A stretch of DNA of 64,000 nt from contig MU058198.1 in NCBI GenBank assembly GCA_013265495.1, positions 1,128,419-1,192,418 of the forward strand. Direction: 5' to 3'. The notes under the pieces are model-generated. The model saw only the letters and a list, made by a program, of their open reading frames with translations, searched no databases and was not told where the DNA came from. The stretch is from Vicugna vicugna (lineage: Eukaryota). A program made the translations under genes and the position numbers. Shown here piece after piece: positions 22,479-61,768 of the stretch (position 1 is the first letter of the stretch; each line of letters opens with the position of its first letter).

Positions 22479-22537
22479 TCAGAAGAGCCCAGCCAGGAGC
22501 AGAGGGAGGAGAAGCATGGGCCAGGCCACCAGGAACC
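22479..22537 (-). CDS. GP2: GP2 last coding exon [19 protein letters not shown] (GPI signal)
   Basis: ctctcccgttccag| acceptor, TGA at 22481-22479. Confidence 0.93.
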
Positions 22538-25500
22538 CTGGAACGGGAGAGAGATGGCTGTCAGGTGCTGGGCTTCGGAACTCAGCAGCCAAAGTGAGGC
22601 GGCCTCCTTATCCTCTGCCTTCCGAGGATGACAAAGGCCGAATAGCCTTACTATCTATTCTGGGTTGCAGCCCCTGGGAGGCGGCAAAGGGGTCACGTCA
22701 TAGAGACAAGGATGTCTAACCACCAAACACCTCTTCATTTTCCTCTGGACACACTCACAGGTACTCTCCCCCGCCTCCTTTGCAGGTAGGTGGGACCATA
22801 TGGCTGAATCAGGCCAGAGGAATGTGGGTAGATACCACGTATGCCACTTCTAGGTCTGGTCCTTAAACCCTCCTATGTAATTCCCCCTGCCCCCTCATTC
22901 ATCATCTAGGCACCAGATGCCAAGCACCCAGAAGAGAACTTGCAGGGGATAGTGGAGTTGCCAGAAGTTACCAGAAGGTAGGAACCCGAGTCCTAATGAC
23001 CATATCCTCCAGTGATTTCATGTGAAACAAACTGTTGCATAAAAAGCACAGAAACTTGGGGACTGTTTGTTACAGCAGCTAGCATTACTCACTCTGACTA
23101 ATACTAACGAGGCAGAAAGACACAGAGGTTAAAAAGTACTACCTCAGAGGCCTGACTACTTATCTTAGAATCCCAGCTCTGCAACTAGTTGTGCAGGCCC
23201 AGGCAAGTTACTGAACCTCTCTGTGCCTGAGTTTCCCTGCATGCAAAATAGAAACATTACTAGCAGCTATTACCTCATGAGATTTTTGTAAGGCTTAAGC
23301 GAGTGAATTCATAGCAAGCATTTAGAACAGTGTCTGGCACACAGTAAACACCATATAAGTATTGGTTTTGAAAACTGGACTCTAAGATCTGGGAGGCTGG
23401 AATCATATTTCTTCTGAATATCACTGCATTCTCAGGATTAATGAAGGACAGGTGTCCTGGATCATAGCTGCCTTGTACTGGAGGATCTGGGAGAGGCATG
23501 TGACCCAATGCCCCCACACAAAGGGATTGTAACATCTCCCCATCCCCTAAATTTCAAAATAAACTGCTGATATCTCTAGGAGGGAGAGGAAGAAGAATAC
23601 TATAATTTTCAGAAGCATATGAGTGTGTGACAGCCAGTTTATAATTATGGAACATAGGCTGATATTCAGTTAATTCTAAAACATCAGAAACGGTGTGTGA
23701 GTCAGCAAAGAACGAAAACCACAGGCGCCCTCTTGTGGTAGTCTGCTACCACATCAGATGAATTTCCTCCTTTTCCAGAAGGCTCCAGAATCCACCACCC
23801 ACCAAGAAATTAGTCAATTTGGCAAACATTACTGCGTAGCCAGGCTGCTCCAGGCCCTGTGCTAACCTGAAGGACCGGAATAAATGAACGAGACTTGAGG
23901 CCCCGGCTCTGAAGTTTCCTCTAGCCTGAGCTCTAAACCCCGTCTCCGATGAACACTGCTTTTCTGATCATTGTCTGAATATCAGCATCGAGCTTGGCTA
24001 GGACATCTTAAGCTTATTTGGAAACTTTTAGACGGTCATCTAGTTGGAGATTTGAGGATGGGTAGAACTTTTTCCTGTCCAGGTTCACCAAAATACGTCA
24101 TTTTGGCGGGTAGTAAAATCTTAATAACATTAATTTCCCTTTGATCCAAAATACCTCTCTTAGATTTGTCTCTTTGTTGAACTCCAATTCATCCATCAAA
24201 ACCCCATTCAGATGTTACCACCTGCTGAGAGTCTCCCCTGACTTATCTGATACAGTCAGTTACTCTTCTGTGTCTCCCATCTACACTGTCTACTTGCTTG
24301 TGACTTATTTGCTTACACGCTTATCTCATTTTTGCAATCATTGTTCATTCTGCCTACAGGCTTATTTCTTGAATATATGCACACCTGGCTCCCTTTTCTC
24401 CTTTAGTCTAAATAGCACCTCTTTTGAAAATTTTTCTGATCACTTATCCATTCCAATATTCATTCTTCCTTCCTATCTTGTTCGTAGAACCATTAAGCGT
24501 TGGTTGGACACATGACAACCTAGGATACAGACTACATTTCCCAACTTCCTTTGTAGCCAGGTATAGCCATGTGACTAAGCACTGGCCAATGAGGTATAAA
24601 CGAAGCTATAAGGTGTCAGCTTCTGGGAATGTTCCCTAACAGTCATCGACTTCTTCCATGTTCCCTCCATCCTGAAGCCTAGATATGAAGGTTGGTGCTC
24701 TGGCTGCCATGTTGGGCCCTAAAGATGATGGCCACACCTTAAAGATGATAGAGGGGTGGGCTGGAAGGAGCTTGGATTCTCTTTTTTTTTTTTTTTTTTG
24801 GAGAACCCAATCCCAACTAAAATGTGTGACATCAGTGATTCCTGCCACAAGGTGGCAAAGTAATTGCTAAAAATGTCACCAATGAGTGACATAAGAGAAA
24901 GTTCCGGTTGAGGGAGGAATTGGCCAGTGCAATGATTCAGGCCTTGTAAATACAGGGGAAATGGAATTGGTTAATTATTACTGCTTTTAGTAAGGCCCTA
25001 CTGCAGAAGGATTTGAAACCGAGGCGTTTTCATTGTTAGGGCCACGTGAGTGCGCCAGGGGTCTGTCTGGGAGCTGGCTTACGAGAGGCCCTTATTTCCT
25101 GCAGTTGGAGGATGGATACAGTGGAGGAGCAAATTTGGGCTCTGATATAGTTGCTGAGCTTAAAAGATGGCTGAATGCTCTGTCAAGGCAGCTCTGCTAC
25201 GATGTCAGAGACCAGTTGGAAAAACCTGGGGAAACATGGGATGGGAGCATCTGGATCATGATTCTTCAGCCAGCCCTCAACCTTCCTCTCTTTATAGGAG
25301 CTAGCCTTGCCCTATCCATGACAACAGCCTGGATTCCTGACGATCTTAGAGCGCTGCCCTGCTGGCTCCGGGTTGCTTGCTTTTGGACTCCATTTATGTG
25401 CGTGAGAAATAAACCCTTGTATTATTTAAGGCGTTATTACCCGTGCTGGTAACTTTCTATCACATTACTCTCTTCTATTTCTAAGTTATCCTGTTAACTT

Positions 25501-28500
25501 TTTATTGTCTACTTCCCACCTGGAACATAATCTCCATGAGAGCAGGCACCTGGCCTGTCTTGTTCACCATTGTAACTTCAGTGCCTAGAACAATGCCTGG
25601 CCCATGGCAGGTTCTCAACAAGCACTTATCCAATGACTGGCTCTCCTGCTGCACTGTGAGTCTCTCTAGAGCCATTCTTGGGTCTGATTCATTTCAGTGT
25701 CTGCAGTTCTGGGTGCAGGGCCTGGCACATTAGAATACGCTAAATAAATATGCCTTGACTTGAAAAGAAGGAGAGTTGGAGGAGGAGGGCTGCGGGAAAG
25801 GCAGGGGGAAATGATATACCTGCAGTGCTGGGGGCTCCGTCCACGATGGCACCTGGAGACAAGAGCAGAAGGTGAGGGTTTCCTCAGTCACGCTCCGGTG
25901 ATGGTGGCACTGTGGCCATGGCTGCTCCCAGTCCTCCGGACCTGGCCATCACAGCCACTGACAGTCCACATAGTGGAAGCATCTATCATCTAGCGGGTAC
26001 CTTTCTAAACACGTTTTATGCATTTGAAACTTGGTCCTCTTAAAGATTTGTGAGGATTTTTTAAAGTCTATTTTTCTATATAGTGGCTAACATTTAATAA
26101 CCTTTAATGAAAAAGAATTTGAAAACGAATATATGAATGTATTTGTATGAGTGGGACATTGTGCTTTGCACTAGAAATTGATACATTGTAATTGACTATA
26201 CTTCAATAAAAATAATAAAACCTTAATTGAAAATTAAAATTAAAAAAAAGTAAAAGAAAGATTTGTGAGGAAATGTTCTTATCTCCATTTGACAGGTGAG
26301 AAGACTGAGGCTCAGCTATGTCTGCCAGCAAGTAGCAGAGCTTGGATTTGGAGCCCAGTCTGTCTGATTGCAAAGTGAAACTTCCTACCTGGCCCAGCTA
26401 CCCTGTGACAACACATGAGGCTTCAAGTGGAGGGCCCAGCAAAGGCTCCCAGGAGAGCCTTCTTCACGTGACAGCCTCAGTTTACTCATCTGGAGAATGG
26501 AAGTGGACATAGTGCTTATGTCCTTAGGCTGTTGTGAGCATTCCATGTAATGATGCGTCTAAATGTGTTTTATAATATAATTATATTATAAATATAATTA
26601 TCACTATTACTATTATTAATGTTACTGCATCTTAATTTCTCTAGAACAAGAAAAAATGCTTTCAAATTTTTTTGGACTTCTTGACTCCTCCATTCCAGGG
26701 GGAATAAAAACCATAAAGGTACTGCTAACCTGTGAGTTGGATGGAAGAAAATTTGAGAAGCAATTGGAAAGCTTCCCCAATATCGTATCACAGAACACTG
26801 TAAGTGGCTTTTGAGAAACACAGTCATTCTCCAGAAGACAAAGTTGAGTTAGGACTTAGACTTCACCCCAGAGGGACTGAGTTATGGGGAGTTGGCAGGA
26901 GGAATAAAGAAAAGGACACAGGCTTTGGAATCTGACCGAGCTGGGTTCAGTGCTAACTCCAGCTGCTCATGAGTCAGACGACCTTGGATGAGTCACTTAA
27001 TCTCCCTGAGCTTCAGATTCTCACCTGTAAAATGGCTTAAGTGAGTCAGCACATGCTGCGAGCTTAGCCTGGTCTCTAGCTCACAGAAGGCCCAGCACTT
27101 GTGGCAAATGTAACCATCATTCCCCAAAGCTCCTCCTGGGAAAGGTGCATTCACCAGTGGGGGTACACTGAGGAGGTAGAACAGGTCCTAGCTTGTTAGG
27201 CTGGTGATCCCTGGCATCCGCAGTTGCACTCGGCCAGCTGGCGTTGTCACCAGGACTTGACCACTTACCTCTCCGAGTGATGGGTCCCAGATCTAGAACC
27301 TGGGCTGAGTCGATAGCCACTAATTCACTGCGGCGTTGACTTCTTGAGCAAGACTGTGGGGATGGAGAATTCTCATTATATCAGAATGGAAAGGCACGGC
27401 TCCTGGTTCCTCTCCAGACCGCTCCTGCAACAGGCAGCTCTGGCCCAAGAATGCCCCTCCCCTCCCCTCCACCATGTGATACTAACTCTGATGCTCGGTT
27501 TCTCACTGTCATGTCAAGCGAACCTGGGTTTGGATCGCCTCTCCTCTCCTTTAGCTGTCTAACTTGGAACTACTTGGAACTACATCTCTCCACTATTGTT
27601 AAATAATATCTTCCTGGTTGGGACGGTTCAAAGGAAGTATGTCTATATCACACTGGCACACAGTAAGCACTCAGTGAATGCCAGCTCTTAGCAGGCAGTA
27701 CCAATCTGGGTTAAGAGCATGGGCACTGTGGCCCCATCTCAGCCAGGGCACACCCTAGTTCTGACACTTTCTAGCTGTGTGGTCCTTGGACAAGGGACCT
27801 CTCTGAGTCTCAGTTTCCTCGTCTGTACAATGGGTTGATAAAAGAATCTCCTTAAAGGGTTGTTGTGAGGATTAAATTAGATAAGGCATATAGCAGTTTT
27901 AGTACAGTGCTTGACACAGAGTAAGCACACAAAAAAGTCAACTATTATTAAAATTATTTAAACTAGGTCTTATGCCAAAGAAACCTAGTGGACAGGCCCT
28001 TTCATCTGATCTCCTTCCTGAGGATGCAACAATTCTTTATGCATGGGCCTTCGGAGGCTTAAAGTCCATTCATTCACCCTTCTTTCTTCCCTCTCTTCCA
28101 TCCATCCACCCATCTATCCATCTGTGCATTTCTTCATCCACCTAACTTTCTCTCCCTTTCTCCCTTCCTTCCTCCTTTTCTCTTTCCTTCCCTCCCTCCC
28201 TCCCTTCTTTCAATCCATCCATGATTCCAATAAATACATATGGAGAGCCTACTAGGTACCAGGTCCTATGTCCGGCACTGAATGGTGCAGTCCAAAGAGA
28301 TACTCACCGGTTCACACTGTTCTTTAAGGGAATCACAGAGAGAAACTTCACAGTGCAGGAAAACCAGGTCATAATTTCCAGCAAACATGAACATCTGAAC
28401 TGAGAACCGGCTTTCCGAAGACACCCCATTCTCCTCCACGTTGATCGTGGCATCATATTGATTTGGGCAGCTGGGGGTGGGGCGACAAGGGCAGGAGGCT

Positions 28501-31500
28501 AACTTCTAGAATAACTTAGGGGGCCTGAGGCCCTTGGCTACGTCTTTAATCTGCATCCAGTATAGAAACAGCATTGGAGGTTTTTATCATGTTCACAGGA
28601 TGCTGGGGGTGGTTAGCTCCCCTGCCCAGATTTTCTCCATCCCAACAATATTGATTTTATTCCTCCAATGTTCCTCCATGATGCTACCCATAAGCCCACA
28701 CGCTTTAGGTTTCCAGGAGCACAGTCCTTGGCGTGAGATGGACAGATTTCAAATAGCAACCCGACCCATTTTCTAACTAAGGGATCATGAGCATCACTTA
28801 ATCTTACTGAACTTCATTCGTATTATCTGTAAAGTAGAGACAGGAATAAGCATTTCCTAGACATGATGGGAGAACTTAATGAGATAATCCGTGTATTCTG
28901 CTTGGCACATAGCTAAACTCAGTGACAAATATTAACTAGCATTATCACCACAGTTTGAATCATGCTCTATAAATATGCATTTCCCTTTGTTTTTGCCAGT
29001 TCACTGTATCCAATATTTTGTCCTATGACACTTATGCTAGCTTCCATGTTGATTAGTCAGTGTTAACGTGTGTGTAATAGTTTATCATTACTTAATAAAT
29101 CCCCTGTTTTTGAACTATGAACCTATTGCCAAAGTTGTAAAAGATACTGAAATGAAAAACAATTGGCTTTTCTTTACCTTGCCCATGTATTTCTGTATTA
29201 ATGCTTTAGGCTAAAATTTCAGGAATGATATTCCTGGGTCAAAAAGGTAAGGTCATGATATATGATACCAAATTATTCTCCAAAAGAGGCAAGCCAGTTT
29301 ACACAACTGCCAGGCAGGGATGAGGGGATCTTTCCCCTCCACTCCAGATCTCATTTAGGCCAAAAGATAACCCCAGATTGTCCGATACCCACCCGTTTTG
29401 GATGATGAAATATCTCACGGGGTCATTCTTGTCTCCAGTGGGCGTGGCATAGCAGTTCCTCAACACCAGGTTAAACCGGGAGGTGTCCCCTCTCACCAGG
29501 GTGGCACCCACATAGAGCATGGATTCAACAGACAGCACGACTGCTGACCCTTCATAAGGAGACGTGTAGCTCTGGTCTTGGAAGAGGGCCATCTGGACAA
29601 TGAACTCTCCCTCCCCGTCCACACTGATGTTCAGGGAACTGAGAACAGAAAAACCACAAGAGTGGACCGGTGAGAACAAAGTCAATTGGGTCCGCCACTT
29701 GCGTAAGGTTATGAAGTCAAAGGCACAACAGTGGTTCCCAAATGAACCATTCAATCGCTCATTTAAGTCAACATTTACTATCTTCTAGGCACTAAACTTG
29801 ACAAACAGGTGAGTCTGGCTCCAGGATTTCTACCAAACCTGCCCTGCATCGGAGATTCACTCAAAGAACACCTCTGTCTTCTCATCCATGGAACAGGATT
29901 GGGACCAGCCCTGTGGGTTCACAATTTTTAGCAGCAGATCTCTTCCCTCCACCCCATAATCTTCAGTGAAACAGCAATTGTACAATGAGATAAATATATT
30001 GGTTTCATTTTTTATGAATCTTGGGCCCTGACACAACGCAGTCTGAAAACTAGAAATTGAACTAGAAAATGTCTAATCCTTATCCTGCCCTTCTGTGAGC
30101 CCAGGAGGCAGTAAGGGATGGGAGGGGCACCCTGGGTTTCTGATAGTCCCAGAAAGTCTCCTGGCAAGAATGCTGAGGAATTTATTCAAAAGGGCTGCAT
30201 TCTAGGCACAGTGATACTGCAGTGAACTAAACAGATTAAAGCCCCGTGCCCAAGTGGAATTCCACCCAAGTTGCTACTTGGTTCGTTTTTCTGGTGAATT
30301 AGGGGTGCTGTTTATCCAATCAAAACTGATGTGGCTTAAGTCCCAGATCTGCAGGGATGTGGGCTTTCCTGCCCTCACCTTTCCTCCCCAAACAAGATTA
30401 GCTGAGGGACCCTCGCTCCCTGTTCCCACAGCACCCCGTGCTTCCCCTACACTGCATTCATCTCACTTGCAAATAATTATTGACATAATTAGTTGTTTAG
30501 TGCCTTTCTTCCTCAAGATAAATGAAATTGTCATGCATTTCTGTTCCCTAGCACATTTAATTAACACTGTTTCATGTTGCTGCATTGCTTCCTAGTAATA
30601 ATGTTTAACATCCACAAAATATTCTATGCCTGCCTTGTTCACGTTGAACATCCTAATACCTTATCAACAAATGTTTGTGGAATGAGCAAGCAAATGAACA
30701 GAAGCTCCTGAAGGAGGTGGGTGATAAGATGTGGGTGAAGTGTGACTGAGGTCAGGGTTATGGGCCAAACGGGGGGGTCAGTGCCGTACCTTACAATGGG
30801 CTGCAGGGCAGTTTGGAGGCTGACTTTCATGTCCAGCGGGTAGGCACACTGGAAGCTGATGCTCAGGATGGTGTCTCTGATGATGAAATCGTTGACCACG
30901 GAGAGGGTGTTTTTGTAGATGGCGTGGGTTTGGTTTCTCTTTGGCATAAAAAGAGGATCACGTGTAGGTTTACGTGGATGCGGGAACAGGTGTATCTGAA
31001 CTCAGGTCTGAGTGCCTCCAGAGTGGCAGCTCTTAATCACTTGGAACCTTGCCCCCTGATCCCAATGAGAAAATAAGCCTCCTCCCCTAGTGGCACTGAC
31101 ACTTCATGGGAAGGAGAGCGAGGACCCCAGATCAAAAACTAGGACGGTAAATTGTTAACCCTTGGGAAGAGTCAGGAACCTCCACGCTTGCTCCTCTATG
31201 AACCCCACCCACATCATCCCTCAGCAAGACAGTCATAATCATGGCTTACATTCGCCGAGCTCAAGCATCAGAAGGCGTCTACGCTCTTTACACGGATAAA
31301 CACATGTGATCTCACATACCCCTAGAGGCCCATGGAGGCTAAGTGACTCGCCCGAGGTCTCACAGCTACTAATGTAGCACAACAGCCCAACTCCCAGAAT
31401 CTGGCAGCAGGGGGCAAGCACCGCTCACCTCCAGAACGTTTCCGCAGGCCCCAGCCTTGGTGGGGCTGGTCACGGATATCCAGTTCCTCTCCTCTCTCTG

Positions 31501-34500
31501 CATGGTGCTGCTGCAGTTCGAGGTCCGATCCTGCAGGTAGGCACTGACCTCGTCCTCGAACCCCAGGCCTCCCAGCACGCACTTGTCCAGTGACACCTTC
31601 ATCTCGCTGGCCCCACAGTCCAGCTGAGGCTGCAAACTGTAGACATCTGGAAAGTCGAGGGGAAGGCAAGTGGAGTGGACAGGAGTCTGGAAGCCCTTTG
31701 GTAGAGCCACCAAGCCCACTGGGAGGCTAGGAGATTAGCAGGGGCCTGGGGCCCATGTGGGATTCACACCCAGGCTTGCAGAGGACAAGGTGAGCAAGGA
31801 CAGTCCGGTCCACGATTTCCAAGCATGCTGTGTGCAGGCTTGGTGAAGGCTTTGTGTCTGGTTCTTGTTGGGGCCCAGAGCAGACCACCCCAAAACATGC
31901 CTAAAGGCATATTGATTATTTTGAGTTAAAGTTACTTAAGAAATGGCTAATGCAACACTTTGACCCTCCTCTCTGTCTCCTTGAAAGTGGGAAATCCATC
32001 TCCCATATGAAAGGCACACTCTGTGCATCTGGAGGTGGAAGCACACCCTTGTCGCCAGAGACAGGGGACTCGGGCTCCTTCTTGCCCCCCTGAGCAGGAA
32101 AGCACACCTGAGCTGAAAGCAAGAGTCAGAGGCCCTTGTTCGTGTCCAGGAGGGAAGGAGGTGATCTCCGTGGGACGCTCGTCTGTGGCATTCCTACCCA
32201 CGGGACATCTGCCTGTGCTTGCTTACCTCCTGCGATGTGAACATCATCTCCAGAGCTTGCCCATGTGGGCTGCTCTGAATGAATTCTCATAAAAGCCCCG
32301 TATGGTAGGTATTTTTAATTTTTAATCTCATCCCCATTTTACAGATGAGGACATTCAGGCTCAGAGAGGGGAGATAGCTTGTCCCGGCCCCAGAGCTACT
32401 ACCTAGCAGATTCAGGACAGGCACAGGACCCTTCCCCTGTCCCTCACACGCAGATCCCACAGATGTCTGATCGCAACTTCCACACTTGCCGAGTTCTCAT
32501 CCTCGGTATCTTTGTCCCTTGTGGGTCAAGACCACTCATTCCAAGGCCACTTCCTGAGGCCATGGTCCAGCAGCTGACCTGGGAATTTGTTCCATTCCTG
32601 CCCTCAATCCTTGCAAACCCACTGGCTTCAAGCACTCACATTCCCTGACCTCAGTTCCGTCCCCACTGACTCTGATCCACACCTTGTCCCAACCCTATGA
32701 AGCTCCCTCCCTCATGCCCTGACCGCTTAGGTCAGCCCCCACCAGCCCTGCCCCTGCCCAGCCGCTCACCAGAAATGTTGAGGTCCTTTCTGCAGAAGCA
32801 GTCCCAGGTGTCCTCGACAAGAAGGCACTCCTCCTCAGAGCGGCAGGTGCAGGTNNNNNNNNNNNNNNNNNNNNNNNNNNNNNNNNNNNNNNNNNNNNNN
32901 NNNNNNNNNNNNNNNNNNNNNNNNNNNNNNNNNNNNNNNNNNNNNNNNNNNNNNNNNNNNNNNNNNNNNNNNNNNNNNNNNNNNNNNNNNNNNNNNNNNN
33001 NNNNNNNNNNNNNNNNNNNNNNNNNNNNNNNNNNNNNNNNNNNNNNNNNNNNNNNNNNNNNNNNNNNNNNNNNNNNNNNNNNNNNNNNNNNNNNNNNNNN
33101 NNNNNNNNNNNNNNNNGGCGAGGGCGTGGTCGTGGGCGGGGGTGTGGTCGTGGGCGAGGGCGTGGTCGTGGGCGAGGGCGTGGTCGTGGGCGTGACAGTG
33201 GCAGGATCTGGGGTGAGGCGTGGAGGAAGAGGATAAGGATGCAGAGCACGGCAGACCGGAGGCCTTCAAAGCCAACTTTTGTCATTCTACGGGACACGAA
33301 GTCTTGCCTGAGGTCGTGCCGTACTTGGTGGAAGAATCAAGCCCCAAACTCGAATTTCATGAATCCCAGTCTAGTCAGGTGAGAACCCCAGAGCAGCCAT
33401 CTTAGTGCTTGTTACAAGGCAGATGCTGTTTCCAGTACTTTCCACGCATCAGCTCATTCAGTTCCCATGGCAACCGCATGCGGTAGGGTCGCTTAATGGT
33501 TAAGCATCTGGATCGTGATGCTGGGGTGCTAGGTTCACATCTGGATCCACCACTTTCTAAATCTTGGATATTGGGGAACTGCTTAATCTCTCTGTCCCCC
33601 AGGCCTCTCGTCTAGACTAATTATATAGTATGTATCTTCTGAAGTTGGTGAGCAAATTAAATGAGTTAAAGGTTTAAAGTGCTTAGAGCTGGGACATGAA
33701 TGCATTAGCCATTGTCCATGTTTTCAGGTCAGAAAACCAAAGCTAAGAGAGTTAAATTAAACTGCTCATTTGAAATCGAAATCTAAGTGAGTCCGAGTTC
33801 TAAATCTTGTGCTACGCACAGGGATAGATCTATCAGGAGATTTCACCTTTGAGTCTGAATTTCTGGCTTGACTTGAAATACTGGCAGCCCCGTGGGCAAT
33901 ATTCCCACTGGGCAGTAATTGGCTGGAGCTGAGCTGAAGCGGCTCTGCTTAGTCTCCCCTTGACCCGCTCCACTCACTCCACTGACCCCTGGGCCCTTCG
34001 CTGGGTGGCCCCGCCGCTGCCTCCAGGTGGGTCTCTGCCACTCACCTGTGCAGTATCCCAGATCACAATAGGGGGTGCCCTCCAACCGGTACACGTGGTA
34101 CTCGCCCGGGCAGGCCTTCACCAGCACGTCAGTCTTCCAGAGGCAGCAGTTGCCGCTCCAGTGGGCACAGGCTGTGCGGTTGATGATGCCCTCCCCCAGG
34201 GTGGGGTGGGTGCCTTCCAGCCACATGGGAGCAGCCGTCTGGCACCGGAACACAGGGACGCAGTCCTCCGGCATCCTCACTCCTCCATTGCCCACAAAGC
34301 GGTACCAGCCGTGCTTGTCCATGTCACAGCTCTGCCCTTCCTCCGTGTTCTCCTTGCTTCGGAAAGGTTCGTCCAGGAGGGTGTAATTCTGGCAGGGGTC
34401 AAAACAGAGCTGGGTCTCTGAGGGGCCCAGGGATCCACAGTCCAAGTCCTTCTCATAGGAACGGGCGTTGGTGGGGTTTCCGGAACCTGGAGAGGAACGG

Positions 34501-36758
34501 TATGCTTGGATTTACGGAGGAACCCCAGAACCTGCAGGATTTTTATCCTTCTACACATCTGTCTGGGAAGGACTCAGGGCCCTAATGAGGACCAGAGGCA
34601 CACTATCCACTCTGTGTTAATTAAATATCAGCCTTCAACACCTTAGGGTCAGAATAATAATGAAGCCTTTGTGTGGAAATTTACAGGCACTGAGAACATC
34701 AGGGTCCCCACCCTGCACGATCTAGGGGGCATCATTCACGCTGAGCTTGGCAGGGGAGGCGGTGGGGGGGGTGCTGCCCTGGAGTTGTGCAGTGCTCCCC
34801 TGTGCAACCATACACTGCGGTCCTGCCTGACCAATATTTGTTTTTCTCATTATAAATGTAACATAGCCTCAAAGGTCGTTCAAATGAATAAAGTAGAAAC
34901 AAAAGTTGTCATTTCTGCATACCATAAATTTGTTGTACAGTCTTCAGACCCTTTCTATGCATTTGTTTAAACACTTCAAAAAAAAATAAAAGTGGGTTTA
35001 ATGCTATACAGTTTTTTTTCCACTTGTATTTTTTTTTTACTTAACATAAACATTTTTCCACTATCAGTAGATGAAGATCAAACATAAGATTTCTCAGCCT
35101 TGGCACTACTGAAGTTTGGGCTGGATAATTCCGTGTTAGGGGGCAGCCTTGTGCACTACAGGATGCCCAAAAGTTTCCTTAGGCTCTTACTAGATGCCAG
35201 TACTACCCTCCTCCCAAAGGGGTCGCCAGACATTGCCAATTGTCCCCTGAAAGCAAAATCATCCTTAAATGAGAGCACTAGTCTAATAGGACCATTTCTG
35301 ATGTCTGATCTCATGGCTTTTGACAGAATCAGGGACTGTGATGTGCGAGGAGGCAGAGAAGTAAAGTGGGGGTGGGAGGGTGGGAGCAGAGGAAACCACA
35401 GGCTGGTCAGTCTGGGTTAAACCCAGCTCTGCACCTGCTGACTGGGTGACCTTGTCGTATGGTTCAACTCCCCTGAGACTCAATTGCAAAACAACAGCTG
35501 CAAGCTAGTGACTTCCAAACATTTTCCATTCTCATGCCGCAGGTCATGATGTTTGCCACACCTGTGTCCACCTATCCTGTTATTTATTTCATGGTTCTTT
35601 CAATGGTTCTCTTTATAAATTCATTGCACCCTAAGGAATGCTATCTCTGATACCATAGGTATGACGTGCTAGTTATATTTTTAATACCCACTGAAAAAAG
35701 TATATAGCTATCAAAATCTTCTTTAAGTTTGCAACTCACTCCCATAGTCATCTTGGGATACGCATACCCCTAAAGTTTTAAAGAATTGTGAGAAGATTAA
35801 ATAAGATACTAGGTAAAAAATGCCAATCACAGTCCCTGGGTCCTAGGAGTTCAAACTAGTTCCCTTCTCTAGTTCTGGCGTGCTGAATAGTGTGAGTGCC
35901 TGAATGATGAATTAAGTGCAAGTACCAGGATCACATCACATTTCCTTTCTTTCTTTTTTCTGGATGCATAAGCCATTTAATAGGTGTGCGTGTCCCCAGC
36001 AGGGATGCACCGATTGCTAGGCTTCTGTCCGCCCGCATAAAGCTGGGGTCATGTTAGAGGGACTTTTTAGAAACAGAGATTTTTCAGGCCTTACTTATGT
36101 ACATGCTTGTTTTAAGGCAAGAAATCACCACCCTTGTTACTCTTGGATTAGTTCCAAGGGAGGCCATGAGCTGAGTCCCTCCAGCCCCCCTCCACAGGGG
36201 ACATGGGCAGAAATTTTCACCCTAGTGTTGAGCCTGAGAATCCTTCCTACAAGTATCTAAGATGCCCAGCCCATGGATCTCTGAAAGGACCATAGAGAGA
36301 TCACGAAATCCAGTCCTTTCATTTTACAGATGAGCAACTTATTTGGAGGAAGGAGAGGCGCTTGCCAAAACAAGGCACAGAGTGACTGGGCAAATCGTGT
36401 CCTCATGAATCCGGGCTCTGGATCTACCCTGTATCTGGTCGTGAGAGGTTGTGCTAACTGGCTCCCACTGTCCTCCGAGGGAGCATTTCTCATCTGGCTC
36501 TTTGAGACACTGTGACTGGATTCCAGTTTCTCTCCTCTTGCTTCCCTTGACTTCTGGCTTCTGAATCTCCACTGTGGTCATGCCCCTGTCTCCCCACTGA
36601 CCCTGAATCACCTTCTCTGCACTTCCCTGCTCACTCTCCAGCTATTGCAGGGCATCTGAGATCAGGTGAGCAGAGCACTTACCTCGCTGCTCTGTAGATG
36701 CCAGAGTCAGAACGCAGTAGGCCAAAGCCAGCCACAGGACGTAAGCCATCCTTTCCAT
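22479..36758 (-). CDS. GP2: Glycoprotein 2 (pancreatic zymogen granule membrane GP2), spliced CDS: join(36683-36758,34046-34486,32770-33207,31429-31646,30790-30938,29393-29638,28308-28470,27269-27353,25820-25852,22479-22537); about 635 aa if the gap size is right
   Basis: Hand-spliced exons with GT-AG junctions and matching phases give [15 protein letters not shown]... signal peptide, [17 protein letters not shown]...D8C domain, EGF, ZP-N/ZP-C and a C-terminal GPI signal [19 protein letters not shown]. Adjacent to UMOD as in other mammals. Confidence 0.96.
23723..23741 (-). promoter_or_regulatory. CTCF motif CTACCACAAGAGGGCGCCT in the last GP2 intron
   Basis: Close match to the CTCF core. 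Confidence 0.55.
25820..25852 (-). CDS. GP2: GP2 exon 10 micro-exon [11 protein letters not shown] (GPI omega region)
   Basis: 33 nt, polypyrimidine ttctgctcttgtctccag| and GCAG|gtatat; phase 1-1. Confidence 0.8.
26088..26255 (+). mobile_element. LINE-1 3' end fragment in GP2 intron 9
   Basis: gggacattgtgct...aattgatacattgtaattgactatacttcaataaa plus A-rich tail. Confidence 0.75.
27269..27353 (-). CDS. GP2: GP2 exon 9 [28 protein letters not shown] (basic cleavage site and external hydrophobic patch)
   Basis: 85 nt, cacag| and |gtaagt. Confidence 0.93.
28308..28470 (-). CDS. GP2: GP2 exon 8 [54 protein letters not shown]
   Basis: 163 nt, cccag| and |gtgagt; not in the ORF track, translated by hand. 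Confidence 0.95.
29393..29638 (-). CDS. GP2: GP2 exon 7 (ZP-C) [19 protein letters not shown]...NCYATP...YFIIQN
   Basis: 246 nt, same length as UMOD exon 7; ctcag| and |gtgggt. Confidence 0.95.
30790..30938 (-). CDS. GP2: GP2 exon 6 [13 protein letters not shown]...[19 protein letters not shown]
   Basis: 149 nt, same length as UMOD exon 6; aag| and |gtacgg. Confidence 0.95.
31429..31646 (-). CDS. GP2: GP2 exon 5 (ZP-N start) [23 protein letters not shown]...ACGNVLE
   Basis: 218 nt, tttccag| and |gtgagc, phase 1 to 0. Confidence 0.95.
31866..32090 (+). mobile_element. ERV1 LTR fragment (MER34/MER39-like) in GP2 intron 4
   Basis: tgttggggcccagagcagaccaccccaaaacatg...gattattttgagttaaag resembles the start of the 16573 LTR. 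Confidence 0.55.
32770..33207 (-). CDS. GP2: GP2 exon 4: DPATV + (PTTTPS)n repeat + gap + EGF-like [28 protein letters not shown]
   Basis: Acceptor cctcaccccag|ATCCT and donor TCTG|gtgagc. Both sides of the N-gap read in the same frame (438 nt = 146 codons). Confidence 0.85.
32855..33116. other. Assembly gap (262 N) inside GP2 exon 4
   Basis: N run abutting the tandem repeat. Confidence 1.
33117..33192 (-). repeat. Coding minisatellite, 18-bp unit (plus strand gggcgagggcgtggtcgt), about 4 copies visible before the gap
   Basis: Directly visible tandem copies; one variant unit gggcgggggtgtggtcgt encodes PTTTPP. Confidence 0.95.
34046..34486 (-). CDS. GP2: GP2 exon 3: beta-hairpin plus D8C/D10C decoy module
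   Basis: 441 nt, [17 protein letters not shown]...CFDPCQNYT...WYRFVG...HWSGNCC...YCT; ccag| acceptor and |gtgagt donor. Confidence 0.96.
35088..35282. mobile_element. MER20-like hAT MITE in GP2 intron 2
   Basis: tttctcagccttggcactactga...ggctggataatt...ccagacattgccaattgtcccctg. Confidence 0.75.
36683..36758 (-). CDS. GP2: GP2 exon 2 coding part: signal peptide [25 protein letters not shown]
   Basis: ATG at 36758, acceptor ctgcag| at 36782, donor GAG|gtaagt, phase 1. Confidence 0.9.
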
Positions 36759-39472: not shown

Positions 39473-40091
39473 TTTTAAACATCTCTATTGCAGTATGGTT
39501 CCTATACAGTAAACTGCACATATTTCAGATGTACAATTTGATGAATTTTGATACATGTATACACTCATGAAACCACCACCACAATCACGATAACTAACAT
39601 TTCTGTCACTCCCCAAGAGGTGAAATTTTCAAATTCCTAATTTATCCCTTCCCACCCCCTTTAAGCCCTGGTAACCATAAGTTTGTTTTCTATGTCTGTG
39701 AGTCTGTTTCTGTTTTGTATATAAGGTCATTGGTGTCCTTTCTTTTTTCCAGATTCCACATATAAGGGATATCATATGGCATTTTTCTTTCCCTTTCTGG
39801 CTTACTTCACTTAGTATGACAATCTCTAGGTCCATCCATGTTGCTGCAAATGGCATTATTTTATTCCTTTTTATGGCTGAGTAGTATTCCATTGTGTATA
39901 TATACCACATCTTTATCCAGTCATCTATTGACGGACATTTGGGTTGTTTCCATGTCTTAGCTATTGTAAATAGTGCTGCTGTGAACATTGGGGTGCAGGT
40001 GTATTTTTGAACTATATTTTTCTCCAGATACATGCCCAAGAGTGGGATTGCTGGATCATATAGTAAGTGAATTTTTAGTTTTTCAAGGAAA
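39473..40091 (-). mobile_element. 5'-truncated LINE-1 (ORF2 C-terminus plus 3' UTR)
   Basis: ORF 39629-40039 TCTPMFTAALFTIAKTWKQPKCPS...WYIYTMEYYSAIK is the L1 ORF2 end; 17-bp TSD. Confidence 0.92.
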
Positions 40092-42599
40092 CTTAGGAGG
40101 GTGATTTTAACAGCTGCCTTGTTTTCAGTCTTGTCTCCTTTGATTCTGTTATCTCCCTGCAGCCAGATGCCACAGTATCATGGCTCAGCGTGATGCTCCC
40201 CCTGCCTCCACAACTCCAGGCTTCCTGGGATCTGACCCTTGTTCGCAGCTCCTACGTCATCTACGGCTTTTCCCCACATACTATGCTGCAGCCTATCTGT
40301 GGGTCTCTGAGCTTTTCCCTCCTCCATACCTTTCCAGACACTATTCTCTCTGCCTGGATCACTCTGTCTCCAACCTCCTACTTCTTATTTACAGTCCCCT
40401 ACTTCCAGGAAGTCTTTCCTAAACTCCACAGGCTTGCTGGTACTGCTCTTCTGTGCTCCTATGCCTCTCTGAGCTGATTACAATCACATTCAGTTACCTA
40501 CTTATGTATCTGTCACCCTCCAAATGCTCTAAGATCTTTGTGGTCAGGGATCCTGTCTTTGAAGTTCTAATCAGCACCTAGTAGGACTTGTTGAGTAAAC
40601 AAATGGACAGAGTCACAATAATGTATGCTCCAGACCCTCTCCTGTGAGTAATGCCTCAAACTTACAGTGTCCAAGTCAGTGAAAGCTTGGTGGAAAGACG
40701 CAAGTCTCTGCCTCAGGGCCTTTGCACTTGCTGTTCCCACTGCCTGCAATGTTCTTCCTCAGATATCTCCCTGATTCATTTTATTACTTCTCCCAGCTTC
40801 TGCTTATCAGAGAGACCTTCCCCAAGCATCCTAAAATAACACCCTCATCACCCTATCACCCTTGTTCTTCTCCCAAAGTGCTTACTACCACCTGATGTAT
40901 CACACAGCTATTGTTTAAATGTATCCCCCTTTTAAACATAAGCTCCTTACCAGCGAGAGCTCTATTTTGATCACTGGCAGTTGCCATGCTGCCAATAAAA
41001 GTGTCTGGCCTTGAATTTATGCTCAAAATATGCGTTGAATATGAAATGAATAATTAACTGATAGAAAACAAGAAAAAAAAAGAAAAAATAAAGGAAAGAA
41101 AAAGAAAAGGAACAGAGGGACAAAAGGATACATTCTGATGTGCTTCTGCCCCCTGGCTCTTGCCTTTGGCCCTTGTTTTTATTTCTCTTCATGTCCTCTT
41201 GTACCTGAGTCAGAGTATAGATGATTCTGCGCATGTCCAGCCAGGCCCTGCTGACCATGGATGTCCTCCCACCTAAAGCTCATATGCAAAGGCGGCAGGC
41301 ATGGGGGTTCAGTGTGTGTCTGCATGTGATATGAGGCCCCTTAACTCGAGATAAGCAGTCCCCAGAGCTCCCTGTTTGCTGATACACATATGTGGTTTTT
41401 CCCTGGGATCAGAGGCTCTAATAATGTGACAGGGCCTTGGTCTTTCCTGGAAAGCCACAGCTGGGCTCCAGGGGAGCAGCTGGCATCAGGACGGACGTTT
41501 CCCATTAGCATCAGCTTCCATTGGTCTCCTTGTTGAAGAAGCCCGGAGAGCCTTGTATTCCAAGGTCTCCCGGGTGCACCAGTCTCTGCTTGTGCCTCCA
41601 AGGAGCCTCCTGGAGGCTCTGCTTGCAATTATCTCCTCTCAGTGGGGTTAATGGTCTGCTTTCTGCTTCTGTTAACAAGGCTCTGTAAACAGATCCACAT
41701 ACTCTGCATTGGGAGGGAGAAGTGCAAAGGATGGAGGGGTCCCTGGGACATGCCAGGTACATCACCTCCAAGGATTGTGATTCCTGAAGGCAGGACCCGT
41801 GTCTGTCTTATTCACATCGGTCTTTTCCTGGCACCCAGCTTGGTGCCTGGCTCCTACTGGGTTCTCAAATAAATGTTCTAGAAAACTGGATGAATCTTGT
41901 GAGGGTATCACTGTTATCCCCATTGGACAGAAGCAGCAGGCCCCCGGTACATCCGCCACTTCTGCAATGCCCGACACACTGATAATTATGTGTTCAGGTT
42001 CTTTTTCCCCTGACAGACCTTAAGATTCAGGAGGGCAGGGATCGTTCACTGCTGCATCCCCAGCAGTGCTTGGCACATAGTAGGTGCTCAGCAAATACTT
42101 CTCGACTGATGGACTGATTGTGCAGATGGATGAAGCTCAGAGACACCGTGTATTTTATTTAAGGTCACAGAACCAGAGTTGAACCCAGTTTCTGTGACCA
42201 GACGGCGAACTCCATGAGGGCAGGGATCAGAGTCTGGTTTCCTCACCATTGGATCCTTAGCACCATGGACAGTGCCTTTATAAGCGCAGGCTCCCGATAA
42301 ATATTTGTCCAGTAAATGAAGGACTCGCAGACTGAGCTTTTGAAAACTATTATTTTGCCACACTCTTTAAGGAGATAGGGGCCTCAAGTGCAGAAACATC
42401 ACAAGTCCCATTTTGAGAGAAGGCAGCATTTAAAGACACAGGCTGTTTTCTGATAGCAAGGATTAAAGGGGAGAAGATAGGAGCAGAGAGACTGAAGCAT
42501 GAGTTCCCTTTTCTGTGGCTGGAGTGCTAGCCTGCATCACCTCGCCAGTCAGCAGGAATAGAGTTGGTAGCCACAGGGCACAGGGCTTCCGGCCGCTGA

Positions 42600-54972
<12,373 letters not shown>

Positions 54973-61202: not shown

Positions 61203-61647
61203 TGAGCTGAGATGTGAAGGGTCAACATCACACAGCTCTGAGGGCATCTGGAGGGTGTGGTATTTTATGTGCATTTAGGCACAAGAAACAGCAGGATGAG
61301 ACAGCAAGAGCATGAATTGTTCAAGAAGTAGAAAGTGTGGCTAGAGCCTAGAAAATGAGAGGGAGAGACAGAGGGGGAGAAGAGATCTTCCTGGCCAGAC
61401 ATTTACAGGCCCTGGAGGCACAGTAAGCAGACTGGATTTTATCCTAAATTAGCAATAAGGATGTCATTAGAGGGTTAATGCAAAGTAGTACTGTAAGCCC
61501 TCATAGCAATGGCCTTTTGTACATCACTTCAGCAGCTTTAGGGAATTTGGATTTTGTATATGTGTGTGGGCTGGGGAGGCACAACGTGGCAGTAGAGAGA
61601 CCAATTAGGAGACTTCTGTGGCTGAGACTGGTGGTTGGAGATGAAGA

Positions 61648-61768
61648 GAAGTGGGTGGAGTCATGTGGAAGGAAGTGGGTGGAGTCCAATGGAGGGGAAG
61701 TGGGTGGAGTCATGAGGAAGGAAGTGGGTGGAGTCCAATGGAGGGGAAGTGGGCGGAGTCAAGTGGAT
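61648..61768. repeat. Minisatellite, core gaagtgggtggagtc x5 with alternating 24/25-bp units
   Basis: Directly visible. Confidence 0.9.

What the first reader, a model, noticed from the sequence alone, without database searches (positions are those of the whole stretch)
32770..33207. GP2 has acquired an in-frame mucin-like (PTTTPS)n domain: candidate lineage-specific mucinization
Seen: exon 4 opens with the expected DPATV (UMOD paralog in this window: DPSSV) and continues [25 protein letters not shown]... from an 18-bp tandem repeat. It then enters a 262-N gap and resumes in the same frame with the EGF domain. The exon is about 438 nt against 108 nt for the paralogous UMOD exon, i.e. roughly 110 extra residues if the gap is sized correctly. 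Known: human GP2 has no PTS tract; Pro/Thr/Ser repeats are O-glycosylated mucin domains; the GP2/UMOD N-terminal module is a decoy for type 1 pilus adhesin FimH and is displayed on ZP filaments and M cells. Inference: a stiff O-glycosylated stalk projects the decoy module away from the filament or membrane, giving a ZP-mucin hybrid that may alter bacterial capture in the gut. I do not know of a prior description but cannot search.
Basis: partly seen in the sequence, partly recalled or inferred. Interest (0 to 1): 0.9.

Follow-up and report, generated by a model that had tools for sequence, protein, structure and literature searches.

The report
Mucin-like repeat inside camelid GP2 gene
The gut-defence protein gene GP2 of this probable camelid carries a proline/threonine/serine repeat, absent from all other GP2 proteins compared, at the hinge between its bacteria-catching arm and its filament core, but most of the repeat lies in an assembly gap and is still unread.

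Summary
GP2 exon 4 (33207-32770, minus strand) opens with (D)PATV. It then reads [25 protein letters not shown] from an 18-bp tandem repeat and runs into the window's only N-run (262 N). It resumes as [10 protein letters not shown]..., the EGF domain. The paralogous UMOD exon is 108 nt.

- **Gene state:** the rest of GP2 is intact, from the start codon to the C-terminal hydrophobic tail.
- **Orthologues:** 71 GP2-like proteins were compared. In 51 the D10C-to-EGF junction could be read, and the linker there is 3-11 residues. None has a Pro/Thr/Ser tract. Here at least 32 linker residues are visible, about 120 if the gap is sized correctly.
- **Position:** the tract starts two residues after the bond that matches the elastase site of UMOD, where the FimH-decoy branch leaves the filament core.
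- **Best reading (0.6):** a coding minisatellite that gives an O-glycosylated spacer and perhaps a protease shield.

Nothing here shows what the gap holds, that transcripts keep the repeat, or which camelids share it. I found no prior description. It is a new variant of a known kind (mucin-domain gain), of moderate interest.

The parts
36683..36758 (-). GP2 first coding exon: ATG and signal peptide ([25 protein letters not shown]), donor G|gtaagt
   Evidence: an in-frame TGA lies upstream of the ATG
34046..34486 (-). GP2 exon for the beta-hairpin and D10C (D8C) decoy branch; 12 Cys and the NYT sequon ([10 protein letters not shown]) are kept; it ends ...YCT + G
   Evidence: Pfam D8C_UMOD 87.8 bits
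33208..33250 (-). 3' end of intron 3: polypyrimidine tract (17 of 20 pyrimidines at -23..-4) and the acceptor AG
32770..33207 (-). GP2 exon 4 as scaffolded (438 nt): linker, repeat, gap and EGF domain
33117..33194 (-). Visible part of the 18-bp (6-codon) tandem repeat that encodes [13 protein letters not shown] units; 78% G+C, 12 CpG, no AG dinucleotide
32855..33116 (.). Assembly gap of 262 N with estimated size; content unknown
32770..32854 (-). Post-gap part of exon 4: the ACCTGC ACCTGC duplication, then the EGF domain [28 protein letters not shown] + G
31429..31646 (-). GP2 ZP-N exon; its phase (G+AT = D, then [11 protein letters not shown]) fixes the exit frame of exon 4
30792..30941 (-). 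GP2 exon for the ZP-N/ZP-C interdomain region; extent is that of the tblastn match
   Evidence: 92% identity to grey whale GP2
29395..29646 (-). GP2 ZP-C exon; extent is that of the tblastn match
28308..28472 (-). GP2 ZP-C exon; extent is that of the tblastn match
27264..27353 (-). GP2 exon [28 protein letters not shown] + G, donor G|gtaagt; end approximate to a few bases
25818..25852 (-). Small GP2 exon (G)[10 protein letters not shown](G), with ag|GT...CAG|gt borders; ends approximate to a few bases
22480..22540 (-). Last GP2 coding exon: (G)[18 protein letters not shown] and the stop codon (hydrophobic C-terminal signal); ends approximate
52789..52896 (-). Paralogous UMOD exon (108 nt, [12 protein letters not shown]...NIT) used as the length comparison

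Best explanation
An 18-bp (six-codon) GC-rich minisatellite has expanded inside GP2 exon 4. It sits in the short linker that joins the D10C decoy branch to the EGF domain and ZP filament core.

The exon keeps its ancestral acceptor and donor, so the repeat is read as (P-T-T-T-P-S)n. At least 25 residues are visible, and about 110 extra residues are expected if the gap is sized correctly.

In the secretory pathway of acinar and M cells such a tract would be densely O-GalNAc glycosylated. It would become an extended, stiff, protease-resistant segment. This has two inferred consequences.
1. The FimH-binding branch is tethered up to about 25 nm from the filament, instead of directly on it.
2. The hinge gains a glycan shield. 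In UMOD, and by homology in GP2, this hinge is where elastase cuts the branch off.

Shown here: the tract, its frame at entry and exit, the intact gene, and its absence from the other GP2 proteins compared. Inferred: the content of the gap, inclusion in mRNA, O-glycosylation, and both functional consequences.
For: 1. Position and frame. The repeat starts 15 nt behind the conserved acceptor. Exon 3 sets the entry frame (YCT+G | AT CCT GCC ACT GTC). The EGF homology and exon 5 set the exit frame.
2. Period. The unit is 18 nt, or 6 codons. The frame survives any copy number, and the gap only needs a length of 1 mod 3, which whole-codon units give automatically.
3. No visible way to splice the tract out. 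There are 0 AG dinucleotides in the 91 nt before the gap. The six AGs in the 85 nt after it would all shift the frame. The acceptor has 17 of 20 pyrimidines.
4. The gene is otherwise intact. The ATG, signal peptide, 12 Cys of the hairpin and D10C, the NYT sequon, ZP-N, ZP-C and the C-terminal hydrophobic tail are present, with no stop or frameshift in any exon.
5. It is derived. 71 GP2-like proteins were compared. In 51 the junction could be read. Their linker lengths are 3 (2 proteins), 5 (2), 9 (44) and 11 (3) residues, and none is longer. None of the 99 proteins has a 30-residue window with >=75% P/T/S.
6. Site. PMC8930769 places the UMOD elastase site at S291|S292, four residues after D10C Cys10 (C287), and GP2 Cys10 at 177 (passages). 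In this gene that bond is A|T of C-T-D-P-A|T-V, and the tract begins after the V. PMC12212870 reports that the GP2 branch is flexible and protease-susceptible and that the UMOD cleavage site is unchanged in GP2 (abstract and passages).
7. Principle. O-glycans near a scissile bond can block proteases (PMC3656315 and PMC11285871; search listing and abstracts only).
Against: 1. About three quarters of the presumed tract is N. Nothing shows that the gap holds only repeat units.
2. No transcript evidence exists.
3. No GP2 of any camelid appeared in two exon-3 protein searches. These searches reached as far as frogs. Annotation pipelines may therefore fail on, or reject, this gene in camelids. A pseudogene call in better assemblies is not excluded.
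4. The sequence just after the gap has an ACCTGC ACCTGC duplication. It gives a C-x-C spacing where 47 of the 51 readable GP2 junctions, as printed, show C-x3-C. Either the first EGF loop is altered or the contig edge is unreliable.
5. All three frames are open over the repeat, so openness alone proves nothing.
6. The tract is 78% G+C. The gap could reflect poor coverage of a shorter tract rather than a long one.
7. O-glycosylation could not be predicted with the tools at hand.
Confidence: 0.6

Rival explanations
1. Same structure, but neutral. The D10C-EGF linker is a flexible, unconstrained segment. A slippage-prone GC-rich hexamer or 18-mer expanded there because it does no harm. The tract is a copy-number-variable passenger with no effect on bacterial capture or proteolysis.
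For: The branch gives no ordered cryo-EM density, and branch-free isoforms still bind FimH, so the hinge may tolerate much (PMC12212870, passages). The repeat is young: units are 93% alike, with 2 differences among 4 units. The 12 CpG in 77 nt have not decayed.
Against: The linker length is kept at 3-11 residues in all 51 readable orthologues, and 44 of them have exactly 9. That argues for constraint on this segment. A hundred O-glycosylated residues at the base of the only protruding domain are unlikely to be without physical effect.
Confidence: 0.22
2. The gap hides a disruption or a way round the repeat. A frameshift or stop would make GP2 a pseudogene in this lineage. Alternatively, an AG inside the gap serves as an acceptor, so the mature mRNA lacks most or all of the tract.
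For: 262 of 438 exon bases are unknown. No camelid GP2 protein turned up. The C-rich repeat could act as a long pyrimidine-like tract in front of a downstream AG. The bowhead whale model P0006 joins exon 3 directly to exon 5, which shows that exon-4-free models exist.
Against: All other exons are open with canonical borders, which is not expected of an old pseudogene. The repeat unit contains no AG, and no visible AG is in frame. Four linker-histone proteins of this genome are also missing from the protein collection. The species seems simply not to be represented, which weakens the argument from absence.
Confidence: 0.15
3. Assembly artefact: repeat-bearing reads from another locus were attached to the contig end, and the true exon is of ordinary length.
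For: Contig ends next to gaps are the least reliable part of a scaffold. There is an odd 6-bp duplication on the far side of the gap.
Against: The repeat is contiguous with the exon start and intron 3 in one contig. Neither the 78-nt repeat nor the 214-nt repeat-plus-intron query finds a second place in the 2.03-Gb assembly, although that search skips simple repeats.
Confidence: 0.03

Closest known systems
GP2 of other mammals (human structures: decoy module, PMC8930769; filament, PMC12212870)
   Same: It is the orthologous gene, next to UMOD on the same strand. The exon plan is the same. It has the signal peptide, beta-hairpin and D10C with the NYT sequon, the EGF domain, the ZP module and the hydrophobic C-terminus.
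   Different: The D10C-EGF linker is 3-11 residues in the 51 orthologues with a readable junction. Here it is at least 32 visible residues, about 120 if the gap is sized correctly, and it consists of PTTTPS units. The first two EGF cysteines are spaced C-x-C instead of the usual C-x3-C.
UMOD hinge (elastase site S291|S292)
   Same: It is the same short segment after D10C Cys10. In UMOD the branch is cut from the filament core here (PMC8930769; PMC12212870). The window's own UMOD reads DPSSV at this place.
   Different: UMOD has no repeat there. Its exon is 108 nt.
'Mucinization' of non-mucin secreted proteins, e.g. PROL1 to MUC10 in rodents and SMR3B-derived mucins of even-toed ungulates (Pajic et al. 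2022, PMC9417175)
   Same: A lineage-specific gain of exonic PTS tandem repeats in an orthologue that lacks them elsewhere (passages).
   Different: Those precursors are small proline-rich proteins of the SCPP locus, and the whole protein becomes a mucin. Here a repeat is inserted between folded domains of a polymerising ZP protein. The paper's main text has 0 mentions of GP2, uromodulin or zona pellucida. Its held supplements mention GP2 only as a mouse saliva proteome entry.
Multidomain ZP proteins with PTS linkers (unnamed library protein P0230: 3 D8C, 2 SRCR and ZP-C; DMBT1/muclin recalled from memory)
   Same: P0230 has 35-50-residue Thr/Pro/Ser tracts. Two of them lie directly between a ...YC D8C end and the next Cys-rich EGF-like start. 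PTS spacers therefore already occur in D8C/ZP proteins.
   Different: P0230 has a different architecture, is not a GP2 orthologue, and comes from an unknown organism. Only 3 of 242 proteins scanned have any such tract.
O-glycosylated stalks and tails of other proteins (CD55/DAF stalk, LDL-receptor O-linked domain, the pancreatic carboxyl-ester lipase VNTR); all recalled, none checked here
   Same: Each is a Ser/Thr/Pro-rich segment that acts as a spacer or protects against proteolysis. The lipase example is made by the same acinar cells.
   Different: They are unrelated proteins. None sits at the hinge of a filament-forming decoy.

Membership tests
GP2 (UMOD/GP2 family of ZP glycoproteins) | Beta-hairpin plus D10C (Pfam D8C_UMOD) with the conserved cysteines | tested here: met
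   PF23283 scores 87.8 bits against a cut-off of 27. The exon has 12 Cys, aligned without gaps to grey whale GP2 at 79% identity.
GP2 (UMOD/GP2 family of ZP glycoproteins) | A single EGF domain between D10C and ZP-N | tested here: inconclusive
   The 26 residues TCR...NIS align at 77% to whale GP2. There is no Pfam hit for the 28-residue piece. The start of the domain lies at or in the gap, and the spacing is an unusual C-x-C.
GP2 (UMOD/GP2 family of ZP glycoproteins) | A ZP module (ZP-N and ZP-C) | tested here: met
   PF23344 scores 30 bits. PF00100 scores 66.7 and 51.7 bits on two exons.
GP2 (UMOD/GP2 family of ZP glycoproteins) | Orthology: best hits are GP2 rather than UMOD, and the gene lies beside UMOD | tested here: met
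   The top named hits are GP2 of whales, hippopotamus and others. Identity over the locus is 83-84% to whale GP2 and 56% to horse UMOD. UMOD exons lie at 44719-54972 on the same strand.
GP2 (UMOD/GP2 family of ZP glycoproteins) | Signal peptide and C-terminal hydrophobic (GPI-type) signal | tested here: met
   Seen by eye. No predictor was run.
Mucin-domain protein (criteria of Pajic et al. 2022, PMC9417175) | Tandem repeats (>=3) confined to one domain | tested here: met
   4.2 copies of an 18-bp unit are visible.
Mucin-domain protein (criteria of Pajic et al. 2022, PMC9417175) | A P/T/S-rich domain in a window of 50-200 residues | tested here: inconclusive
   Only 25 repeat residues are readable (13 T, 3 S, 9 P, so 100% PTS). 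The rest lies in the 262-N gap.
Mucin-domain protein (criteria of Pajic et al. 2022, PMC9417175) | >20% Thr+Ser and >4% predicted O-glycosites over the peptide | not testable with these tools
   The whole protein is unknown because of the gap, and no O-glycosylation predictor is on hand. The visible tract is 64% T+S.
Lineage-specific mucinization event | Orthologues outside the lineage lack the repeat | tested here: met
   0 of 51 readable junctions have a linker longer than 11 residues. 20 of the 71 GP2-like proteins had no readable junction; these are fragments or exon-4-free models.
Lineage-specific mucinization event | The repeat is shared and kept open within the lineage (other camelids) | not testable with these tools
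   No camelid GP2 appeared.

The most novel reading that the evidence does not exclude
Camelids have turned GP2 into a ZP-mucin hybrid. About 110 densely O-glycosylated residues sit exactly at the elastase-sensitive hinge. They keep the FimH-decoy branch attached in the protease-rich gut. They also let it swing some 25 nm from the filament, roughly four subunit rises of 66 Å. This would change how piliated bacteria are caught. In the branch-free splice form, the same tract would become an N-terminal mucin cap on the filament core.
Probability: 0.25. Interest if true: 0.65.

Novelty: new variant of a known kind. Interest (0 to 1): 0.45.

Why it matters
GP2 and UMOD filaments are decoys for type 1 pili. 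Their only protruding part, the branch, is lost to proteases at a short hinge (PMC12212870). A natural variant with a long mucin-like tract at that hinge would be a ready-made experiment. It bears on two open points: how far the decoy glycan must reach, and whether the branch matters in the gut at all. It would also extend 'mucinization' from small proline-rich salivary proteins to an insertion between folded domains of a polymerising protein. If the gap hides a disruption instead, the finding turns into a lineage-specific loss or remodelling of GP2, which is of lesser interest.

Tried and rejected
**Reads.** The look-up of sequencing runs listed 14 DNA runs that hold 0.93-0.98 of the sampled words. 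It also listed possible RNA runs at 0.11-0.25. No run was laid, so these shares are evidence of nothing.

**Protein searches (all 3 used).**
- Exon 3, 'longer' and 'near': the best identity was 80-86%, with no same-lineage protein.
- Exon-4 open frame with X for the gap, 'near': only low-complexity bacterial hits. 0 of 96 contain any of 8 GP2 words.

**Representative library.** There were 2656 D10C-family hits at E<=0.001. None was close to the window, and the library carries no names.

**Metagenome scans (both used).** The exon-3 protein and a 28-nt junction pattern found nothing.

**Own assembly.** There is no second copy of the repeat.

**Naming the organism from its own proteins.**
- The best cytochrome b match is a broken nuclear copy.
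- Four linker-histone proteins are not in the collection.
- 'Camelid' therefore rests on two weaker grounds. The nearest GP2s are cetartiodactyls at <=84% identity. Unchecked earlier notes call the genome camelid.

**Earlier findings.** Nothing was found near this place, by sequence or by words.

**Literature.** No paper links GP2 to a PTS tract or to camelids. The one paper that holds both 'pancreatic secretory granule' and 'camel' is a breast-cancer diet review.

Full report
**What is in the sequence**

GP2 lies on the minus strand. Exon 3 ends ...TAC TGC ACA G|gtgagt at 34046. Intron 3 ends in a strong polypyrimidine tract (17 of 20 pyrimidines) and the acceptor AG. Exon 4 starts at 33207. 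With the G carried over from exon 3, the exon reads D-P-A-T-V. It continues [25 protein letters not shown].

Tandem Repeats Finder reports an 18-bp unit, 4.2 copies, 93% matches, score 138. It is one of only two arrays with score >=80 in the 64-kb window. The contig then breaks into 262 N (32855-33116), the only N-run in the window.

Behind the gap the sequence reads [28 protein letters not shown] plus G, with the donor at 32770. The next exon starts at 31646 with AT, giving [12 protein letters not shown].

**How much the frame argument is worth**

All three frames are open over the repeat. The next gap, found in 200 kb of flanking scaffold, is 230 N. Gap lengths in this assembly are thus estimates, and the fit of 262 N to the frame is on its own a one-in-three event.

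A better argument comes from the repeat itself. The unit is six codons. The entry frame is fixed by exon 3, and the exit frame by the EGF homology and exon 5. The two agree whenever the gap holds whole codons after the broken unit is completed.

The 91 nt before the gap contain no AG. None of the six AGs in the 85 nt after it would give an in-frame acceptor. The tract can be spliced out only if the gap holds something other than repeat units.

**State of the gene**

Aligned to grey whale GP2, every exon is open. This covers the ATG and signal peptide, the hairpin/D10C exon, the ZP exons, and the ITRR exon with a canonical donor. The hairpin/D10C exon is 79% identical, with 12 Cys and the NYT sequon that matches the FimH-binding N65 of human GP2. 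It also covers a small exon and a last exon ending in a hydrophobic tail and a stop. Pfam finds D8C_UMOD, ZP-N and ZP-C above their cut-offs. UMOD lies upstream on the same strand. This is a working-looking GP2 orthologue. The only unknown is the gap.

**Whose genome**

- Summed over the locus, the nearest proteins are whale GP2 (83-84%), hippopotamus (79%), an unnamed Logan transcript (79%) and warthog (76%).
- The assembly has 2.03 Gb in 12,405 pieces.
- Earlier notes of this scan call the genome a camelid, and one of them a South American camelid. These are unchecked AI notes.
- My own attempts to name it failed. Cytochrome b hit a broken nuclear copy. Four histone H1 proteins are not in the collection.
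- I therefore write 'probable camelid'.

**Is the tract derived?**

Searches returned 99 proteins, of which 71 match the GP2 locus better than the UMOD locus. In 51 of these the D10C-to-EGF junction can be read. The linker between the last D10C Cys and the first EGF Cys is 3, 5, 9 or 11 residues (2, 2, 44 and 3 proteins), never longer. The other 20 are fragments or models without exon 4. None of the 99 has a 30-residue window with >=75% P/T/S.

In the window the linker has at least 32 visible residues. The comparison includes the nearest available lineages:
- whale: DPTTTVDNCERTC
- hippopotamus: EPTTTEDRCEKTC
- warthog: DPTTAIMENKCEKTC

No ruminant or camelid GP2 was named among the hits, so the branch on which the gain happened cannot be fixed.

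**Where it sits in the protein**

PMC8930769 (passages) gives GP2 D10C Cys10 as residue 177. It also gives the splice point of the branch-free isoform as T178|D179, UMOD Cys10 as C287, and the UMOD elastase site as S291|S292. Counting from Cys10, the matching bond here is A|T in C-T-D-P-A-T-V, and the repeat starts right after the V.

PMC12212870 (abstract and passages) reports four things:
- The GP2 branch is flexible and protease-susceptible.
- The UMOD cleavage site is unchanged in GP2.
- Elastase removes the branch.
- The filament rises 66.3 Å per subunit.

The insertion is therefore at the hinge where the decoy branch leaves the filament core and can be cut off.

**Most likely working**

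I commit to a coding minisatellite that yields an O-glycosylated spacer (confidence 0.6). The motif has threonines flanked by prolines. From general knowledge of GalNAc-transferases (recalled, not computed here), this is a good acceptor.

At roughly 2.5 Å per residue (recalled), 110 residues would span about 25 nm, roughly four subunit rises. I add a second, testable consequence: a glycan shield over a protease-sensitive hinge. O-glycans can block nearby cleavage (PMC3656315, PMC11285871; listing and abstracts only).

The rivals are:
- a harmless copy-number-variable passenger (0.22)
- a disruption or cryptic acceptor hidden in the gap (0.15)
- an assembly artefact (0.03)

**Points against**

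- Three quarters of the tract is unread.
- No transcript was seen.
- No camelid GP2 model exists in the protein collection.
- The ACCTGC ACCTGC duplication at the gap edge gives C-x-C where other GP2s have C-x3-C.
- The 78% G+C could explain a coverage gap over a shorter tract.

**Comparison with what is known**

Gain of exonic PTS repeats by non-mucin proteins is described as 'mucinization' (PMC9417175). That paper's main text does not mention GP2, uromodulin or zona pellucida. Its held supplements list GP2 only in a mouse saliva proteome.

PTS spacers do occur in D8C/ZP proteins. Three of 242 scanned proteins have one. One of them is P0230, with three D8C domains, two SRCR domains and ZP-C. 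In it, two tracts lie between a D8C end and the next EGF-like start.

No paper found links GP2 with such a tract or with camelids.

**Verdict**

It is a new variant of a known kind, of moderate interest until the gap is read.

Noticed in passing
window 32843-32854 (-): Directly behind the gap the hexamer ACCTGC occurs twice in tandem. This gives T-C-T-C-R and a C-x-C spacing of the first two EGF cysteines, where other GP2s show C-x3-C. It may be a real change of the first EGF loop or an unreliable contig edge.
   Followed up: partly
window 61643-61767: This is the second tandem array of the window: 25/49-bp unit, 2.4-5.1 copies, score up to 219. It lies outside GP2 and UMOD as mapped here. Its nature is unknown.
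   Followed up: no
window 44719-54972 (-): UMOD lies upstream of GP2 on the same strand. Its exons match horse UMOD at 71-94% identity. No repeat is found in its D10C-EGF exon.
   Followed up: partly
window 39629-40177 (-): A 182-residue open frame that looks like the C-terminal part of a LINE-1 ORF2 lies between GP2 and UMOD. The identification is by eye only.
   Followed up: no
protein searches: No GP2 of any ruminant or camelid is named among 99 hits that reach as far as amphibians. Whales, hippopotamus, warthog and many other orders are present. Four histone H1 proteins of this genome are also absent from the collection.
   Followed up: partly
P0006 (bowhead whale model): This gene model joins ...YCT directly to [12 protein letters not shown], so it has no exon 4 (EGF). 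It is either an annotation skip or a real isoform.
   Followed up: no
P0230, residues 26-75, 457-503, 655-689: An unnamed 1146-residue protein has three D8C domains, two SRCR domains and ZP-C. Thr/Pro/Ser tracts precede each Cys-rich EGF-like start. Two of them lie directly behind a D8C end.
   Followed up: partly
G000:C5490:10405-13908 (L003): A nuclear copy of mitochondrial DNA carries cytochrome b split into two frames of 216 and 162 residues, next to ND5- and ND6-like frames.
   Followed up: partly
window 33117-33194 (+ strand): The strand opposite the GP2 mRNA is G-rich, with GGG runs every 9 nt or so. It might form G-quadruplexes, and the 78% G+C may be why the assembly broke here. No folding was done.
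   Followed up: no
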